Shown here in pieces: positions 42,218 through 55,000 of a stretch of DNA of 64,000 bases. Origin of the DNA: Bacteroidia bacterium (GTDB taxonomy: Bacteria; Bacteroidota; Bacteroidia; 2-12-FULL-35-15); the NCBI GenBank assembly GCA_030654175.1, contig JAURXZ010000008.1, positions 115,426 through 179,425 of the forward strand, written 5' to 3'. The stretch's first letter is position 1; each line of letters opens with the position of its first letter. A model generated the notes under the pieces. It searched no databases. It was not told the DNA's origin and saw only the letters and a list, made by a program, of their open reading frames with translations. Made by a program: the position numbers and the translations under genes.

Positions 42218-44008
42218 TTATGGTTTATAGGTTATAAATTGAAATGCATTTTGAATTTTAGTACCTACAGGGTCATATATAGTAACTGTAAGTTTTCCTG
42301 AACCATCATCATCCGTGGCGAATTTAACATTATTACCTATTGGTGTTACTATTGTTATATAATTTGAAGTTGTATAACTTTCAGATGCTATTGTGATCTT
42401 ATATCTGTTGTTTGATCCGCCATCCCAGGAAACTGTTATATTGCCGGTACTTGTATATACTACACCCGAAGAACTTATATTGCCGTAGGCAATTGGGACT
42501 AAGTTAGCTATTCCTGTTTGGGTTCTGTTCAACTCATTTGCATTAGTCCCTGCTATATTAATGGTACCATTCACCTCAAGTTTTGTTGTTGGAGCAACCG
42601 TTGTACCGATACCAACATTTCCATTTTGGTCAATACGCATTCTTTCAGTACCATTCATACTGCCGTTTGGAGTAGTCATGAATTTTAAATAAGATCCGTT
42701 GTTACCAAAGGAGAAGTTTTCAGAAGCAACTGCACCAATTTCTGTCTGATCATTGGTTGAAAAAACAGTACCATCATATCCGCTGAATTTGAGAAAACCA
42801 ATTTCATCACCTGAAGCAATAGCTAATGGTGAGGTTTCTGTCCCTTTTGCTTTTCTTAACCAGAGGTGAGAATCTGAAACTGAACTACTATTATATTCTG
42901 TTCCTACAATTCCATGCGGACCGTTCGAAGAGGTGCTCACCACTTCAAATTCTGCATCAGGAGTGGTAGTACCTATCCCTACTTTGCCTGTATTATTATT
43001 ATAAATATCATTACCGGAAGCAGTCCAAACACTATTAAATGTTGTTCCTGTTAAGGTTAAACCTGTGCCTGCAATATAGGAGGGAGATAGAGGTGTGGTC
43101 CAGGTTGCTAAACCGGTTGCATCAGAGGTTAATAATTTACCCAATCCCGGTGTGCCTCCTGTAATTTTTATTTGCCCGGCAATTTCCAACATCGCACCCG
43201 GGTTAGTTGTTCCAATACCTACATTTCCTCCGGATGGTTGTAAACTCATATTTCCATTGCTATAAACAGATAGCCTGGGTTCAAAAATACCACCTCTGAA
43301 AACTGTAAGATCAAACATGCTTTCGTTATTCGAAGTAGCACTTATGTTAAATGCTGTCCCTTCGTGTGTGCCGGTATTTAAATACAATGCCCTTGTTAGC
43401 GTATTGGTACCTGTTAATACTTCTAATTTATTTCCGGGGTTCATTGTTCCAATACCCACATTGCCTGTTGAATCAAGTACCATCCCAAGTGAATTGTTTG
43501 TTCTGAAGCGTAAGGGCGTGTTATTGGTTGTTCCTATAAAATCAGTTCCGCCACTGATATTGCCGATCAAAGACCAACTGTTGCTACTACTGTTTCCTGC
43601 TGTTTTGGCATACAAAGCGTAGGGCACACTCATCATTTGGATCCTTCCCATAGAAAGGTAATTGCTGCCACCAACGGTATCTACTTCTGTTTCTAAATAT
43701 TTATTTCCGGTTGCCCATGGAATTGAGGTAAAACTCGTGGTGCTGATGCTTCCAATCACCAATGTAAATAATCCATAACGGTTTGTATTTACAGAATTAT
43801 GTATTTCAGTGAATAGAGTTGCACCTCCTGTAATAGAATCCCAAATAGTAAATCGTACACTTAGGTTTACGCTATTGCTTATTGGTTTTCCACTGGTATC
43901 CCTCGCCACGGCCTGATAGTTAATGCCTTCAGGAGGAGCTTGAGCAAAAGAGAATACACTTATCAGCAGTAATATAAATGTGCCGATTGAAAAAAGTAAC
44001 TTTTTCAT
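42218..44008 (-). CDS. Fibre paralog A (596 aa): shared N domain plus tail-fibre-like GNVGIGT modules, no collagen
   Basis: Signal peptide SFA|Q; [14 protein letters not shown]...[14 protein letters not shown]; four G(N/K)VGIGT junctions; tip LVPIAYGNI...FQFITYKP. Confidence 0.88.
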   Translation of the reverse strand: MKKLLFSIGTFILLLISVFSFAQAPPEGINYQAVARDTSGKPISNSVNLSVRFTIWDSITGGATLFTEIHNSVNTNRYGLFTLVIGSISTTSFTSIPWATGNKYLETEVDTVGGSNYLSMGRIQMMSVPYALYAKTAGNSSSNSWSLIGNISGGTDFIGTTNNTPLRFRTNNSLGMVLDSTGNVGIGTMNPGNKLEVLTGTNTLTRALYLNTGTHEGTAFNISATSNNESMFDLTVFRGGIFEPRLSVYSNGNMSLQPSGGNVGIGTTNPGAMLEIAGQIKITGGTPGLGKLLTSDATGLATWTTPLSPSYIAGTGLTLTGTTFNSVWTASGNDIYNNNTGKVGIGTTTPDAEFEVVSTSSNGPHGIVGTEYNSSSVSDSHLWLRKAKGTETSPLAIASGDEIGFLKFSGYDGTVFSTNDQTEIGAVASENFSFGNNGSYLKFMTTPNGSMNGTERMRIDQNGNVGIGTTVAPTTKLEVNGTINIAGTNANELNRTQTGIANLVPIAYGNISSSGVVYTSTGNITVSWDGGSNNRYKITIASESYTTSNYITIVTPIGNNVKFATDDDGSGKLTVTIYDPVGTKIQNAFQFITYKP

Positions 44009-44214
44009 GATTGTGAGCTGAACGTTGCTAAGGTACTTTATAATGTTTAAACAATTAAATTCTTTTCGCAAATATTTTGAGCCGAAATTATCAATTGTTT
44101 GAAGAATAATAAGTAAACAAAAAAATTAATAAGTTTAAAAAATCGATATTCGTTTATTGCTAATTGGATGCGGCCTATTGCTGTTATTAAAAGAATGTGC
44201 TTTTATATGCATAA

Positions 44215-52072: not shown

Positions 52073-52086
52073 CAGGGGACCAGCAA

Positions 52087-55000
52087 TTATTTCTTCTTAA
52101 TCAACTCAATCTCTTTTTGAATTGAATCAATTAATGCCCGCTGAGTTTTATGCTGCTCTTCATTTTGTTTTTGCATTGCATCATTTTGCTTTTGCATTGC
52201 TTCTATTGTCTTTTGCTGTTCTTTAATAGCTTCAACTAAAATGGGAGTAAGGCGTGAATAATCAACAGATTTATAACCGTCTTTGTCCGTGAAAACAACT
52301 TCCGGATATATTTTTTCTAAATCCTGAGCAATAAACCCTATTTGCTTATCATTTGTAAAAATTTTGTTAGGAAATTCATTTGTTTTCCAGTAGTAGTTTA
52401 CACCATTTAATTTCATTACATTGGAAAGCGCACTTGGTAAAGGGGTGATATCTTTTTTGTAGCGGATGTCAGAACATGAATTTACACCCAAAGAAAGCGC
52501 AGTTGCTGTAGCATAAATTATTCCAGTTACGCCCATATTACCTACCACATGTAATGGGTATTGAGGATCTATACACCCTATACCTACATTTCCTCCGTTA
52601 GGTTGAAGAGATAAAGATTTAAAACTTCCGCCTTCTACAACTTCTAATGCCCCGTATCGTAATGAAGCAGTCGCATCCGTTTTTATTCCAAATCTCAACG
52701 TTAATGGACTGATCGCATCCGTACTTGCCACTTGAAAAATATTTTCGAATGCTACTGTAGTAGCTTTTGTGTTTGTTCCTCTAACGTCTAATTTTAATGC
52801 AGGTGCTGTAGTTCCAATCCCAACATCGCCATTAGTTAAAACAGACAGCCGAGTTGAACCATTTGTTAATAAATGAAGGGAAGTGGTTGAGTTGATGTCA
52901 AGTTGTGCGTTGGAATGGATATTTGCATTGCTACCTGTAGAAACAAATTCAAGTTCATTACCTACACGTGTCTGGATGGTTAAAGGAGAGGTTGGTGTCG
53001 TTGTTCCAATTCCAACGTTTCCACCACCATTAAAGATAGCATCATAATTAGTAGTTCCACCGGATACCGATGAAACATAGAGTCCAATATTAGCAGCATT
53101 AGTTCCTAGCCATGAGCCATTGGATTTTAATTCCAATGCAGCCTTAGTAAAAGTTCCACTGGCGGATGTCGCATTATTTGTAAACTTAGCTCCTGAATAA
53201 TCTGCAGTTTTAGCTCCGGTTGCTATTGTTTGTAGTTGAGATGTTGGAGTTGTTGTTCCAATCCCAACATTGGTCCCTGTATCAAAAATACTGCTATTAC
53301 CAAGTGTAATTCCATCAGGAGTAAATTTGGCCACATAATTAAGTGTTCCGCCAGCGCCAGGTGCAATTCCGGGTATAAGATTACCATTTGCATCAGTTAA
53401 AATGAAACGAAGTCCTGTCCCTGTCAGACTTTGAAAACGCACTCCGCCTGTTGTATGAAGCTGGGTGGAGGGAGCTGTTGTTCCAATACCAACATTACCC
53501 TGATCAAAGATACCTGCATAATTATTTGTTGCTCCGGTAGCAGTATAATATCCTCCAACATTGGTTGTACCTGCACCTGTGTTTGAAACATAGGTGCCAT
53601 AATCAATTGATCCTGCTGTAGCTCCTGTATGAGCTACTTCTATCCCTACAGAATTACTTCCGTTGGTAGTAACCTCTATGCCATCAGCTGTGCTGGCAGC
53701 ATTCAATACTTGAAAAGATCCTGCTCTTCCTGTACTTGTGTTTTTTCCAGATATGGCATTTCCTGTACCATTGGTTTCAGCGTATAAGGCATCATTGATG
53801 TTGGCGCCATTGCTGATAGTAAATGTTCCCGCTCTCCAGGTACCGGTGTTAGTTGCAAAAATGGCATTTCCACTACCATTTGTCCTGCCAACAAGAGTAG
53901 AGGAGGAGTTTGAAGCATTAAAGTTTTCAAAAACACCTGATGATCCAGTTCCGAGAGTTGAAGAAGTAAGTCCAATCACCGCGCCTGCCGGAGTAATATG
54001 CAGTTTTGAAGTAGGTACACTATTTCCAATACCAACATTACTGGTATTATTATTATAAATATTATTAGCTGATTGCGTCCATACACTATTAAAGGTTGTT
54101 CCGGATAGGGTTAATCCTGTTCCGGCAGTATATGTTGCAGAAGAATCGTTTCGCCATGCGGGAGCTCCAGAGCCATTTGTTTTCCAAACCATATTGAGAT
54201 TTCCGCTACCTGTAGTGACAACACCGTCACTGGTTGAAGAATTTGTTGCCACTGAAATAGCAGGTGTTGTACCATTTGTAGACATAATGGGTGCAATGCC
54301 TGTAACTGCAGTTACTGTTCCCGCAGCTGGTGTGGTCCAGGTTGGAGTTCCTGTTCCGCCTGATGTAAGCACCTGCCCGGAAGTACCTACAGTAGAAAAT
54401 CCATAAGCTGTTCCGGTTGTGTTGGAGTATGGTATAGAGCCGGCTGATCCAATGGTATTTGTGTTGGTACCTCCGTTTACAATAGGAAGCATTCCGGATA
54501 CTTTTGTAGCAAGATTAATGGAAGCGTTAGTTATATCAGCATTTACAATTTGTCCCCAGGCAGGATTGCCGGTTGCGTTACCATGTAGTACTGTGCTTGT
54601 GGTACCTTGATTTTGAAATAAAGACGATGCAAGGGTTGGTACAAAATACGCAGGTGTGGTGCTGGTACCGGTATTATTCCCCCAAACGGTGTAGGCAGCA
54701 GCATCTGAAAGGGTAAAAGACAAGGCCGGGGCGGTTGTTGCATTACTAACAGTTGTAGTGAATAAAGGAGCTAAAGAGTCTGCACTAAAAGAAGTAACAC
54801 TGCCTGTGTCGGGGATTGCCCAGGTAGCCAAACCTGCAGCATCAGATGTTAATACCTTATTTGTTCCGGGATTGCCACCGGTAATTTTGATTTGCCCTGA
54901 TAGATCAAGTATTGCAGCAGGATCGGGGCTGGATGTTCCAATACCAACAGTACCTTCAATAATAGCACCATTTGTCGGAGCGGCTGTAATCCCTGAATAA

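What the first reader, a model, noticed from the sequence alone, without database searches (positions are those of the whole stretch)
42218..54905. Module shuffling between fibre paralogs at GNVGIGT junctions
Paralog A is a patchwork of modules found separately in other paralogs. [25 protein letters not shown]...[11 protein letters not shown] occurs in A (~43250-43445) and C (~46375-46565). [13 protein letters not shown]...FMTTPNG...ERMRIDQNG occurs in A (~42615-42965) and D (~48535-48900). GQIKITGG.PG..K.LTSDA.GLATW and TGLTL.GTTFNSVWT...IYNNNT are adjacent in A (~42985-43185), but in F (~54820-54905 and ~54035-54135) they are separated by a ~230-aa insert. C and D share DLGTHWT.TGN. D/E tips and B/C tips look pairwise related. 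Module borders often fall at the recurring G(N/K)VGIGT motif. Inference: this motif acts as a structural hinge and a micro-homology crossover point, letting the array make new shaft/tip combinations without a dedicated recombinase (none seen here).
Basis: partly seen in the sequence, partly recalled or inferred. Interest (0 to 1): 0.75.

Follow-up and report, generated by a model that had tools for sequence, protein, structure and literature searches.

The report
Fibre genes swap cassettes at motif
Six neighbouring genes of a Bacteroidota bacterium encode phage-tail-fibre-like surface fibres whose shafts are strings of interchangeable cassettes, and comparison with related genomes shows that cassettes were added, lost and replaced exactly at the DNA encoding a short G-N-V-G-I-G-T motif.

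Summary
The region is a chromosomal tandem array of six secreted fibre genes, A to F. They resemble the mosaic adhesive trimer (MAT) fibres of Bdellovibrio.

**Observation.** The shared modules are real and are bounded by G-N-V-G-I-G-T motifs. One claim failed: the B and C tips are not detectably related.

**Age of the A/C, A/D and A/F sharing.**
- It is old, with dS of 1.1 or more.
- It is present in the orthologues R1-R4. The array order is unchanged in a relative at 93.6% DNA identity.
- On its own it does not show shuffling.

**Evidence for shuffling.**
- In five related arrays, cassette gains, losses and replacements map to within about 30 nt of the motif's first base.
- Deeper orthologues of A carry another cassette in the M1 slot.
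- Three otherwise unrelated fibre genes in this genome share one 86-residue cassette at 90-93% DNA identity, which drops to background at both motifs.
- Across 139 family members, 151 of 255 similarity breakpoints fall at motifs against 46 expected.

**Other points.**
- No recombinase or reverse transcriptase lies in the window.
- The motif marks β-helix domain borders in solved MAT structures.
- Whether short homology drives the exchanges or selection filters them is unresolved.
- Turnover is evolutionary, not phase-variation-like.

The closest precedent is motif-mediated adhesin shuffling in T-even phages.

The parts
42218..44008 (-). Fibre gene A (596 aa from the ATG). Order: signal peptide, N domain, neck, cassette M1, cassette M3, cassette M2, tip.
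   Evidence: ORF list. The shaft matches solved Bdellovibrio MAT structures 8oml, 8on4, 8ol4 and 8ond, best E 3.9e-14. Full-length orthologues exist at 94-51% identity.
44215..45171 (-). Fibre gene B (318 aa). Order: N domain, collagen-like G-X-T run, small tip. It has no GNVGIGT motif.
   Evidence: Pfam Collagen hit. B is absent from relatives R1, R2 and R3 and present in R5.
45448..48054 (-). Fibre gene C (868 aa ORF). Order: N domain, collagen, neck, five motif-bounded cassettes including M1, tip.
48162..49667 (-). Fibre gene D (501 aa ORF). Order: N domain, collagen, neck, cassette M2, tip related to the tip of E.
49829..51952 (-). Fibre gene E (707 aa ORF). Order: N domain, collagen, neck, cassettes, Phage_depo_C-type β-sandwich tip.
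   Evidence: Pfam PF25692, E 4.5e-7. Unit map.
52087..55695 (-). Fibre gene F (1202 aa). Order: N domain, neck, eight cassettes, Peptidase_S74 intramolecular chaperone (about 52294-52473), coiled-coil tail.
   Evidence: Pfam PF13884, E 1.2e-16. Unit map.
43208..43465 (-). Cassette M1 in A, bounded by motifs at 43445-43465 and 43208-43228. Its partner in C is 46333-46590.
   Evidence: 83% aa and 76% nt identity, dS 1.64. Deeper A orthologues have another cassette in this slot.
42602..42988 (-). Cassette M2 in A, bounded by motifs at 42968-42988 and 42602-42622. Its partner in D is 48528-48917.
   Evidence: 71% aa identity, dS 1.12. Homologous to the penultimate β-helix unit of Bd1334 and Bd2133.
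42968..43228 (-). Cassette M3 in A. Its two halves match F 54811-54954 (M3a) and F 54022-54138 (M3b). In F they are separated by an insert of about 225 aa at 54139-54810.
   Evidence: The insert is conserved in F orthologues.
46921..47205 (-). Variable cassette slot in C, between motifs C284 and C372.
   Evidence: This unit is 28-30% identical to the units at the same place in R3 and R1, while flanking units are 79-96% identical. It is absent in R2. DNA identity switches at the motifs.
50774..51106 (-). Cassette present in E (aa 283-387) and absent from the E orthologues of R1 and R2.
   Evidence: The MAFFT gap has both ends on motif columns. The three-way DNA junction lies within the motif.
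53275..54042 (-). F cassettes X (53500-54042) and Y (53275-53499). R1 and R2 have the order Y then X'.
   Evidence: Y is 82% identical and X 57% identical to the R1 units, in swapped order. The junction lies within the motif, with 18 nt of identity.
43595..44013 (-). N-domain tract of A that is 93% identical to B 44758-45176. It contains a core of about 180 nt with 2 mismatches.
   Evidence: blastn alignment. N-domain dS is 0.20 for A-B, against 0.9-3.8 for most other pairs and 0.61 for C-D.

Best explanation
**What it is.** The locus is a chromosomal array of secreted, probably trimeric, phage-tail-fibre-like surface fibres of the MAT type. Each protein has these parts in order:
- a signal peptide;
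- a conserved N-terminal domain of about 115 residues (the presumed cell-proximal anchor);
- in B to E, a collagen-like G-X-T run;
- a β-helical shaft, absent from B;
- a variable tip.

**How the shaft is built.** The shaft is a string of cassettes of 31 to about 300 residues. Each cassette starts and ends with the capping-loop motif G-N-V-G-I-G-T-x-x-P-x-x-K-L. In solved MAT fibres this motif lies at the border between successive β-helix domains.

**How it changes.**
- Every cassette carries the same motif at both ends. Two cassettes therefore share 5-18 identical nucleotides in register.
- A join made there keeps both the reading frame and the fold.
- Over evolutionary time, cassettes are copied between fibre genes, inserted, deleted or replaced by recombination whose crossover lies inside this motif DNA.
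- I infer this happens by short-homology recombination or template switching, followed by selection for functional fibres. No site-specific enzyme is involved.
- The 420-nt N-domain is a second, longer homology tract. It supports gene conversion and gain or loss of whole genes.
- The result is a repertoire of fibres with different shaft and tip combinations. By analogy with Bdellovibrio MATs, these are presumably different binding specificities.

**Shown versus inferred.**
- Shown: the architecture, the homology, the positions of the junctions and the ages of the events.
- Inferred: trimer formation, the adhesive function and the molecular recombination pathway.
For: **Family assignment.**
- N domains of A to E hit NCBIfam NF053851 (Bdello_MAT_N) at E 7e-9 to 1e-10.
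- The A shaft hits MAT crystal structures at E 3.9e-14 to 8.5e-9 and shares the ERMRIDxxGNVGIGT word.
- F carries S74 and E carries Phage_depo_C.
- The genome has 17 N-domain paralogues.

**Motif as domain border.** The Bd2133 β-helix domains G683-E813 and N814-A907 begin and end at the motif (text mapped through the alignment).

**Junctions in related arrays.**
- Five related arrays were compared: R1 L117, R2 L119, R3 L121, R4 L123 and R5 L127.
- All three indels of 12 aa or more in ortholog groups C and E have both ends on motif columns.
- One C cassette is replaced: 28-30% identity against flanks of 79-96%.
- In three-way DNA alignments, identity switches from one parent to the other within 0-30 nt of the motif's first base at seven junctions.

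**A itself.** Deeper orthologues keep M3, M2 and the tip at 57-75% identity, but the M1 slot holds an unrelated cassette.

**Same genome, outside the window.**
- The ORFs at C16:358020-359483, C19:154145-156580 and C31:298400-300415 share one 86-aa cassette at 90-93% DNA identity.
- Identity falls to 30-40% at both motifs.

**Family-wide.** 151 of 255 breakpoints fall at motifs against 46 expected.

**No dedicated enzyme nearby.** No recombinase or reverse transcriptase lies in the window.
Against: - A mutational role for microhomology cannot be separated from selection. Outside the motif two unrelated cassettes have no equivalent positions, so any viable join would map there.
- The motif DNA is not uniform: the median shared run is 8 nt. 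Its codon bias is largely explained by codon context, with residual p of about 0.005 at two positions.
- Present-day microhomology at two junctions is only 5-8 nt.
- Apart from M1, that sharing fits differential loss.
- The architecture is unchanged over 8 kb in a relative at 93.6% DNA identity, so turnover is slow.
- Donors were not identified for the E-specific and C-specific cassettes; the best matches in this genome are 32-34%.
- Trimer formation, surface display and binding were not tested.
Confidence: 0.72

Rival explanations
1. Selection only. Breaks and joins occur at random by illegitimate recombination. Only joins that land in register at the capping-loop motif give a foldable fibre and survive. 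The nucleotide identity at the motif plays no causal part.
For: - The motif coincides with β-helix domain limits in Bd2133.
- The motif DNA is only slightly more uniform than codon context predicts.
- Two junctions have only 5-8 nt of present-day identity.
Against: - Every mapped junction lies inside the stretch that is identical or nearly identical between the parents. Several have 14-18 nt runs.
- Random illegitimate joins that are both in frame and in register would be very rare.
- No decayed out-of-register remnants were seen in the six genes.
Confidence: 0.2
2. Plain duplication and differential loss. An ancestral long fibre gene held all the cassettes. The paralogues and orthologues differ only by deletions, and nothing moved between genes.
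For: - A shares only one cassette with each of C, D and F, so there is no order conflict.
- The dS of the shared cassettes equals or exceeds the N-domain dS of the same gene pair.
Against: - One C slot holds three mutually unrelated cassettes or none in relatives whose flanking units are 79-96% identical.
- Cassette order is X-Y in F and Y-X' in R1 and R2.
- The M1 slot of A holds another cassette in deeper orthologues.
- One cassette at 90-93% DNA identity sits in three genes that are otherwise unrelated.
- Even under this rival, the deletions would end at the motif.
Confidence: 0.05
3. A programmed, high-frequency variation system comparable to pilE/pilS, vls, shufflons or diversity-generating retroelements. 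It would reshuffle the fibres within a population.
For: - The genes form a tandem array of paralogues that share repeats.
- Position-specific codon preference at two motif positions remains after the context control.
Against: - No recombinase or reverse transcriptase lies in the window.
- Intergenic gaps are 107-380 nt, which leaves no room for silent cassettes.
- No inverted-repeat logic applies, because all the genes are co-oriented.
- The architecture is identical in a relative at 93.6% DNA identity.
- The paralogue sharing is ancient.
Confidence: 0.04
4. Assembly artefact. Metagenome assemblers joined different fibre genes at the repeated motif and so created apparent cassette swaps.
For: Most of the related sequences are metagenome contigs or MAGs.
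Against: - The shared runs are at most 18 nt. From general knowledge, this is shorter than the word sizes assemblers usually use.
- Independent assemblies reproduce the same gene lengths for R1 (L115/L117 against the Logan contigs L116/L118) and for R2 (L119 against L120).
- R5 reproduces this genome's architecture over 8 kb.
Confidence: 0.02

Closest known systems
Mosaic adhesive trimer (MAT) fibres of Bdellovibrio bacteriovorus (Caulton et al. 2024, PMC10769870)
   Same: - Both have a signal peptide, a conserved N-terminal domain, a β-helical shaft with the same capping-loop motif and a variable tip that is either S74 or non-S74.
- Both occur as many paralogues per genome.
- The shafts are homologous by sequence to the solved structures 8oml, 8on4, 8ol4, 8ond and 8ojn.
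- The authors already proposed tip swapping and listed homologues in the FCB group, which includes Bacteroidota.
   Different: - The host here is a Bacteroidota bacterium of unknown lifestyle.
- The N domain scores below the curated NCBIfam cut-off, and F gives no hit.
- Four of the six proteins carry a collagen-like run between the N domain and the rest of the protein.
- The genes sit in one tandem array.
- This analysis adds exchange of internal shaft cassettes mapped to the motif DNA, beyond the tip swapping described in that paper.
Motif-mediated adhesin shuffling in T-even phage distal tail fibres and gp38 (Tetart et al. 1996 and 1998, as cited and discussed in Trojet et al. 2011, PMC3157838)
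   Same: Variable segments lie between short, conserved, glycine-rich motifs. Genetic exchanges occur within or near those motifs and create chimeric adhesins.
   Different: - Those are phage genes recombining during co-infection, with the phage recombination machinery, and the recombinants were recovered experimentally.
- Here the genes are chromosomal bacterial genes, the motif is a different one, and the evidence is comparative only.
S74-type phage tail fibres and tailspikes (T5 pb1, K1F endosialidase)
   Same: Both have a triple β-helix shaft and a Peptidase_S74 intramolecular chaperone, as in F. PHROG tail-fibre families also match.
   Different: - Identity to any deposited phage is below 35%.
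- The flanks hold no phage genes and are syntenic in related bacterial genomes.
Deletion and template switching between short direct repeats in bacteria (from my own knowledge: RecA-independent rearrangements between repeats of about 8-20 bp, as reviewed by Lovett)
   Same: The junctions lie inside direct repeats of 5-18 nt that are 90-540 nt apart.
   Different: That mechanism explains deletions and duplications well. Copying a cassette between distant genes with only motif homology at both ends is less well documented.

Membership tests
MAT (mosaic adhesive trimer) fibre superfamily | Conserved N-terminal domain (NCBIfam NF053851, Bdello_MAT_N) | tested here: inconclusive
   A to E hit at E 7e-9 to 1e-10 with 33-41 bits, below the curated cut-off of 60. 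F gives no hit at E 0.01 or better, although its N domain is 68-71% identical to those of A to D.
MAT (mosaic adhesive trimer) fibre superfamily | β-helical shaft units with the capping-loop motif, homologous to solved MAT fibres | tested here: met
   phmmer of A against PDB chains gives 8oml E 3.9e-14, 8on4 2.7e-12, 8ol4 8.2e-10 and 8ond 8.5e-9. The aligned word is ERMRIDxxGNVGIGT.
MAT (mosaic adhesive trimer) fibre superfamily | Variable C-terminal tip, either S74 chaperone or a non-S74 domain | tested here: met
   F has PF13884 (E 1.2e-16) and E has PF25692. The tips of A, B, C and D have no Pfam hit. The tips are mutually unrelated except D with E.
MAT (mosaic adhesive trimer) fibre superfamily | Large repertoire of paralogues per genome | tested here: met
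   The genome has 17 N-domain copies. It also has further motif-bearing fibre ORFs with another N terminus.
MAT (mosaic adhesive trimer) fibre superfamily | Trimeric fibre displayed on the cell surface that binds a target | not testable with these tools
   Only signal peptides and homology are visible. No multimer prediction or experiment was available.
Motif-mediated modular shuffling of fibre adhesins (T-even type) | Variable segments flanked by short conserved motifs | tested here: met
   The five motif-bearing genes A and C-F carry 25 motif instances under the looser motif pattern. Units between them are mostly unrelated to one another.
Motif-mediated modular shuffling of fibre adhesins (T-even type) | Recombination junctions map within the motifs | tested here: met
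   Seven junctions between orthologous arrays, plus both borders of an intragenomic cassette, map within 0-30 nt of the motif start. Family-wide enrichment is 151 observed against 46 expected.
Motif-mediated modular shuffling of fibre adhesins (T-even type) | Recombinants recovered experimentally | not testable with these tools
Programmed variation systems (pilS/vls cassettes, shufflons, DGRs) | Dedicated recombinase or reverse transcriptase at the locus | tested here: not met
   PF00589, PF00239 and PF00078 have no match inside the window. The nearest tyrosine recombinase on the same contig is more than 320 kb away.
Programmed variation systems (pilS/vls cassettes, shufflons, DGRs) | Silent donor cassettes next to an expression site | tested here: not met
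   All six genes are complete ORFs with signal peptides. Intergenic gaps are 107-380 nt.
Bacterial collagen-like proteins (Pfam PF01391) | Run of G-X-Y triplets above the Pfam gathering score | tested here: met
   B, C, D and E score 29-49 bits against a cut-off of 27.2. A and F have none.

The most novel reading that the evidence does not exclude
The motif-coding DNA would be a maintained, recombinase-free connector shared by all β-helix fibre genes of the cell, and possibly of neighbouring genomes and phages. Any cassette in this pool could then be copied into any fibre at an appreciable rate. That would give Bacteroidota a combinatorial adhesin system, a kind of 'shufflon without an enzyme', whose output could be read in natural populations.
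Probability: 0.15. Interest if true: 0.8.

Novelty: new variant of a known kind. Interest (0 to 1): 0.6.

Why it matters
- Surface fibres of this type are thought to decide what a cell sticks to: prey, hosts or partners.
- This locus shows at nucleotide resolution that the internal shaft cassettes are exchangeable units joined at one short motif, in addition to the tips. The same cassettes also circulate among several fibre gene families in one genome.
- The finding extends a principle known from T-even phage adhesins to chromosomal bacterial genes in Bacteroidota.
- It gives a simple rule for parsing these very common 'hypothetical' or 'tail fiber domain-containing' proteins: cut them at the motif.
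- It suggests natural joints for engineering chimeric fibres.
- It sets up a clean test of whether very short homology steers recombination or only survives selection.

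Tried and rejected
- **Whole genome of relative R1.** It is not held. I obtained its array through two encoding-contig look-ups instead.
- **Look-up of P0004.** It failed. P0111, from the same contig, worked.
- **In-genome donor for R1's extra E cassette.** I searched with the own-genome C31 fibre protein. 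This found only distant carriers, so no donor was shown.
- **Motif DNA under selection.** Raw codon counts looked strongly biased. Most of the bias vanished when I controlled for neighbouring codons, so I do not claim a selected DNA signal.
- **MAFFT alignment of the F ortholog group.** It forced non-homologous distal parts together. I replaced it with a unit-by-unit map.
- **B and C tip relationship.** Rejected by BLAST and hhalign.
- **Recent exchange with phages.** Rejected, because matches in the phage collection are below 35% identity.
- **Structure prediction.** Not run. A monomer model of an intertwined trimer would not have settled the hinge question, so I used the solved MAT structures instead.

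Full report
**1. What is at the locus**

The interval holds six co-oriented minus-strand genes, and no ORF longer than 151 aa lies on the other strand.
- A 42218-44008
- B 44215-45171
- C 45448-48054
- D 48162-49667
- E 49829-51952
- F 52087-55695

Domain content:
- All six begin with a signal peptide and a shared N domain of about 115 residues.
- B, C, D and E continue with a collagen-like G-X-T run (Pfam PF01391).
- F ends in a Peptidase_S74 intramolecular chaperone, and E ends in a Phage_depo_C β-sandwich.
- PHROG matches are to tail-fibre families.

Family assignment:
- The N domains of A to E match NCBIfam NF053851, the N domain of the Bdellovibrio 'mosaic adhesive trimer' (MAT) fibres. 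E-values are 7e-9 to 1e-10 and scores are 33-41 bits, below the curated cut-off of 60.
- The shaft of A matches the crystal structures of those fibres (8oml, 8on4, 8ol4, 8ond) at E 3.9e-14 to 8.5e-9. It shares the word ERMRIDxxGNVGIGT.
- These are therefore MAT-like fibres.

Context:
- The genome is 5.1 Mb in 51 contigs, with about 35% G+C in the window. It has 17 copies of the N domain.
- It also has other motif-bearing fibre ORFs with a different N terminus.
- The N domain is widespread in Bacteroidota, with at least 598 matching stretches in the species genome collection.
- The flanks are not phage-like, and the same flanks surround the array in related genomes. On one side is a YfiR-like/TPR/HAMP-PP2C unit. 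On the other are ABM, SAM-hydrolase and PhoH genes and a T9SS cargo gene.

**2. Check of the observation**

- M1: A aa182-267 with C aa489-574.
- M2: A aa341-469 with D aa251-380.
- M3a: A aa261-306 with F aa248-295.
- M3b: A aa310-347 with F aa521-558. About 225 residues lie between the two parts in F.
- Neck: C and D share DLGTHWT.

All outer borders of these modules fall on G-x-V-G-I-G motifs.

Two points need correction.
- The D and E tips are related (hhalign probability 95.7%), but the B and C tips are not (0.2%).
- The insert in F does not lie at a GNVGIGT motif. By eye it lies among copies of a second repeat, G..LTS..G...W.

**3. Age of the sharing inside the array**

- The shared cassettes are 73-76% identical in DNA, with dS of 1.1-1.8.
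- That is as old as, or older than, the divergence of the N domains of the same gene pairs: 0.89 for A-C, 1.10 for A-D and 2.0 for A-F.
- Relatives R1-R4 retain A's cassette order and motif positions.
- Orthologues of A covering 97-100% of its length exist down to 51% identity. Below about 64% identity, however, the M1 slot holds another cassette.
- By itself, then, the patchwork look of A does not show shuffling. For M2 and M3, retention in A and loss elsewhere fits equally well.

The only young tract inside the array is the N domain of A and B.
- It is 419 nt at 93% identity, with a core of about 180 nt carrying two mismatches. It ends at the last codon of the N domain (dS 0.20).
- This is gene conversion or recent duplication through ordinary homology, and the GNVGIGT motif plays no part in it.

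**4. The same locus in related genomes**

Five related arrays were recovered.

| Array | Locus and source |
|---|---|
| R1 | L117, GCA_040384245.1 |
| R2 | L119, GCA_040384205.1 |
| R3 | L121 |
| R4 | L123 |
| R5 | L127 |

Stability:
- R5 is collinear with this window over 7969 nt at 93.6% identity and has no cassette differences.
- Ortholog groups A and D have no indel of 12 residues or more.

Differences:
- **C group.** The unit between motifs C284 and C372 is only 28-30% identical to the units at that place in R3 and R1, while the neighbouring units are 79-96% identical. R2 has no unit there.
- **E group.** E has an extra unit (aa 283-387) that R1 and R2 lack. R1 has an extra double unit (aa 481-624) that E and R2 lack.
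- **F group.** F reads X (552-732) then Y (733-807). R1 and R2 read Y (82% identical) then X' (57% identical).
- **F distal part.** The S74 end of F resembles R4 (71-76%). R1 and R2 carry another tip.
- **Whole genes.** B is absent from R1, R2 and R3 (the sequenced part of R4 likewise shows no B-like gene). R1 and R2 have an extra fibre gene of 478-490 aa.

Junction positions:
- All three clean indels in the MAFFT alignments have both ends exactly on motif columns.
- In three-way DNA alignments, the junction sequence follows one parent up to the motif at 72-89% identity and the other parent after it at 77-86% identity.
- The switch lies within 0-30 nt of the first base of the motif at seven junctions.
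- The parents share 18, 14, 14, 8 and 5 nt of in-register identity there.

**5. Evidence bearing directly on A and on this genome**

- Deeper orthologues of A (P0009, P0013, P0015, P0016, P0018, P0019) keep M3, M2 and the tip at 57-75% identity.
- In the slot between the first two motifs they hold an unrelated, shorter cassette. P0006 and P0008 have M1 there.
- M1 of A is 83% identical to M1 of C. M1 was therefore placed into, or replaced in, the A lineage at a motif-bounded slot.

Three otherwise unrelated fibre ORFs of the same genome give the clearest case.
- They lie at C16:358020-359483, C19:154145-156580 and C31:298400-300415.
- They share one 86-residue cassette at 90-93% DNA identity.
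- In 30-nt windows the identity is 86-100% inside the cassette and 20-46% outside. Two exceptions are the 30 nt upstream shared by C16 and C31 and the transition window at the right-hand motif.
- The change occurs at the first base of the left motif and within the right motif.
- No long flanking homology exists in this case, so allelic homologous recombination cannot explain it.

Cassettes that are 'extra' in R1 have 82-83% matches in other fibre genes of this genome (C31:110961-117257 and two genes on C16). The cassette pool is therefore shared between fibre families.

**6. Family-wide statistics**

- I compared 139 proteins: the hits plus the array proteins.
- There are 255 internal ends of local alignments with at least 70% identity.
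- Of these, 151 fall in the motif window, against 46 expected for uniform placement.
- Alignment starts pile up at -5 to +4 residues from the motif start, and alignment ends at +15 to +24 residues.
- These events are not phylogenetically independent, so the enrichment is the result rather than the p-value.

**7. What the motif is**

- In the Bd2133 crystal structure the authors delimit two β-helix domains, G683-E813 and N814-A907.
- Through the alignment, G683 is the first glycine of GNLGLGT. E813 is the last residue of the next motif with its capping loop (GLVGINTAAPLQKLHVE).
- The motif therefore lies at the joint between successive β-helix domains.
- The same paper describes 'capping loops' with a related consensus in MATs, S74 phage fibres and MyRF. 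It also reports flexible fibres in negative stain.
- I could not test whether bending happens at the motif.

**8. Is the DNA itself special?**

- In the six genes, the motif codons vary. The in-register identical run between two motif copies has a median of 8 nt and a maximum of 18 nt.
- Across the genome (56 instances in ORFs with two or more motifs), raw counts show position-specific codon preference.
- Most of this is explained by codon context. Residual p is about 0.005 at two positions.
- I therefore do not claim a selected DNA signal.

**9. Mechanism**

Shown:
- Cassettes are the units of change.
- Joins lie in the motif DNA.
- No tyrosine recombinase, serine recombinase or reverse transcriptase lies in the window.
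- No silent cassettes are present.
- Turnover is slow: nothing changed at about 6% DNA divergence, while several events separate genomes at 7-20% divergence.

Inferred:
- Short-homology recombination or template switching between motif copies produces deletions, duplications and copy-paste transfers.
- Selection keeps those products that fold.
- The N domain serves as a longer homology tract for conversion and for gain or loss of whole genes.

The alternative is that selection alone places the junctions at the motif. The present data do not exclude it.

**10. Comparison with what is known, and novelty**

- MAT fibres, their mosaic nature and tip swapping are published, and homologues in the FCB group (which includes Bacteroidota) are listed in that paper's supplement.
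- Exchange within or near conserved glycine-rich motifs is the established explanation for adhesin plasticity in T-even phages.
- Matches to deposited phages are distant, below 35% identity.
- Three things are new here, as far as the searched library shows.
  - A tandem chromosomal array in Bacteroidota with collagen inserts.
  - Exchange of internal shaft cassettes.
  - Nucleotide-level mapping of many junctions to the capping-loop motif, including one recent intragenomic transfer.
- I rate it a new variant of a known kind, of moderate to good interest.

Noticed in passing
window 43595-44013 and 44758-45176: The N domains of A and B are 93% identical over 419 nt, with a core of about 180 nt carrying two mismatches. 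Identity starts 5 nt before the ATG and stops at the last N-domain codon. B is missing from relatives R1, R2 and R3, where the C-to-B spacer plus the B N domain corresponds to the spacer plus N domain of A. This points to gain or loss of a whole gene by recombination between N domains.
   Followed up: partly
G000 C16:445641-450332, C16:450515-455194, C6:81977-87862, C31:110961-117257 (L125, L126): A second family of very long fibre proteins (1559-2098 aa) starts with a different N terminus (signal peptide, then Q-N-N-M-G-I-G-T-L-S-P-K-P-S-A-I-L-D; the C31 copy reads [18 protein letters not shown]). It uses the same shaft cassettes, two of which are 82-83% identical to cassettes found in the array genes of relative R1.
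   Followed up: partly
L030 (G017), L033 (G014), L034 (G006): loci downstream of the PP2C sensor orthologue: In more distant genomes of the same genus, the syntenic fibre genes (one or two copies) are followed by three kinds of gene. By eye these look like a T9SS type-B sorting-domain protein, a PorP/SprF-like membrane protein and an OmpA-like protein. This may bear on how these fibres, which lack a T9SS C-terminal domain, reach the surface. The assignments were not checked against Pfam.
   Followed up: no
window 52087-52830 versus L117 8648-9031: Orthologous F genes carry different ends. F has an S74 chaperone plus coiled coil, as in R4. R1 and R2 have a non-S74 tip ending ...AHTFSYHV(V/I)ETQ. 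This is a switch between the S74 and non-S74 classes within one orthologous gene.
   Followed up: partly
window 41840-49677 versus L121: Divergence from relative R3 is uneven. The A gene and its downstream flank are 92.7% identical in DNA, while the D-C stretch is 81-84% identical. This suggests allelic recombination between lineages or much faster evolution of C and D.
   Followed up: no
G000 C17:117653-121210 and C47:2-3667; also paralogues P12, P14 and P17: Several fibre genes are cut by contig ends, often inside collagen-like repeats. The ORFs on C17 and C47 share 135 identical nt at their contig ends and are probably one gene. The count of 17 paralogues is therefore approximate.
   Followed up: no
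L117 9284-9766 and 10001-11473: R1 has two extra genes between its F and E orthologues: a 160-aa lipoprotein-like ORF and a 490-aa fibre paralogue. R2 has only the fibre paralogue (478 aa), and this window has neither.
   Followed up: no
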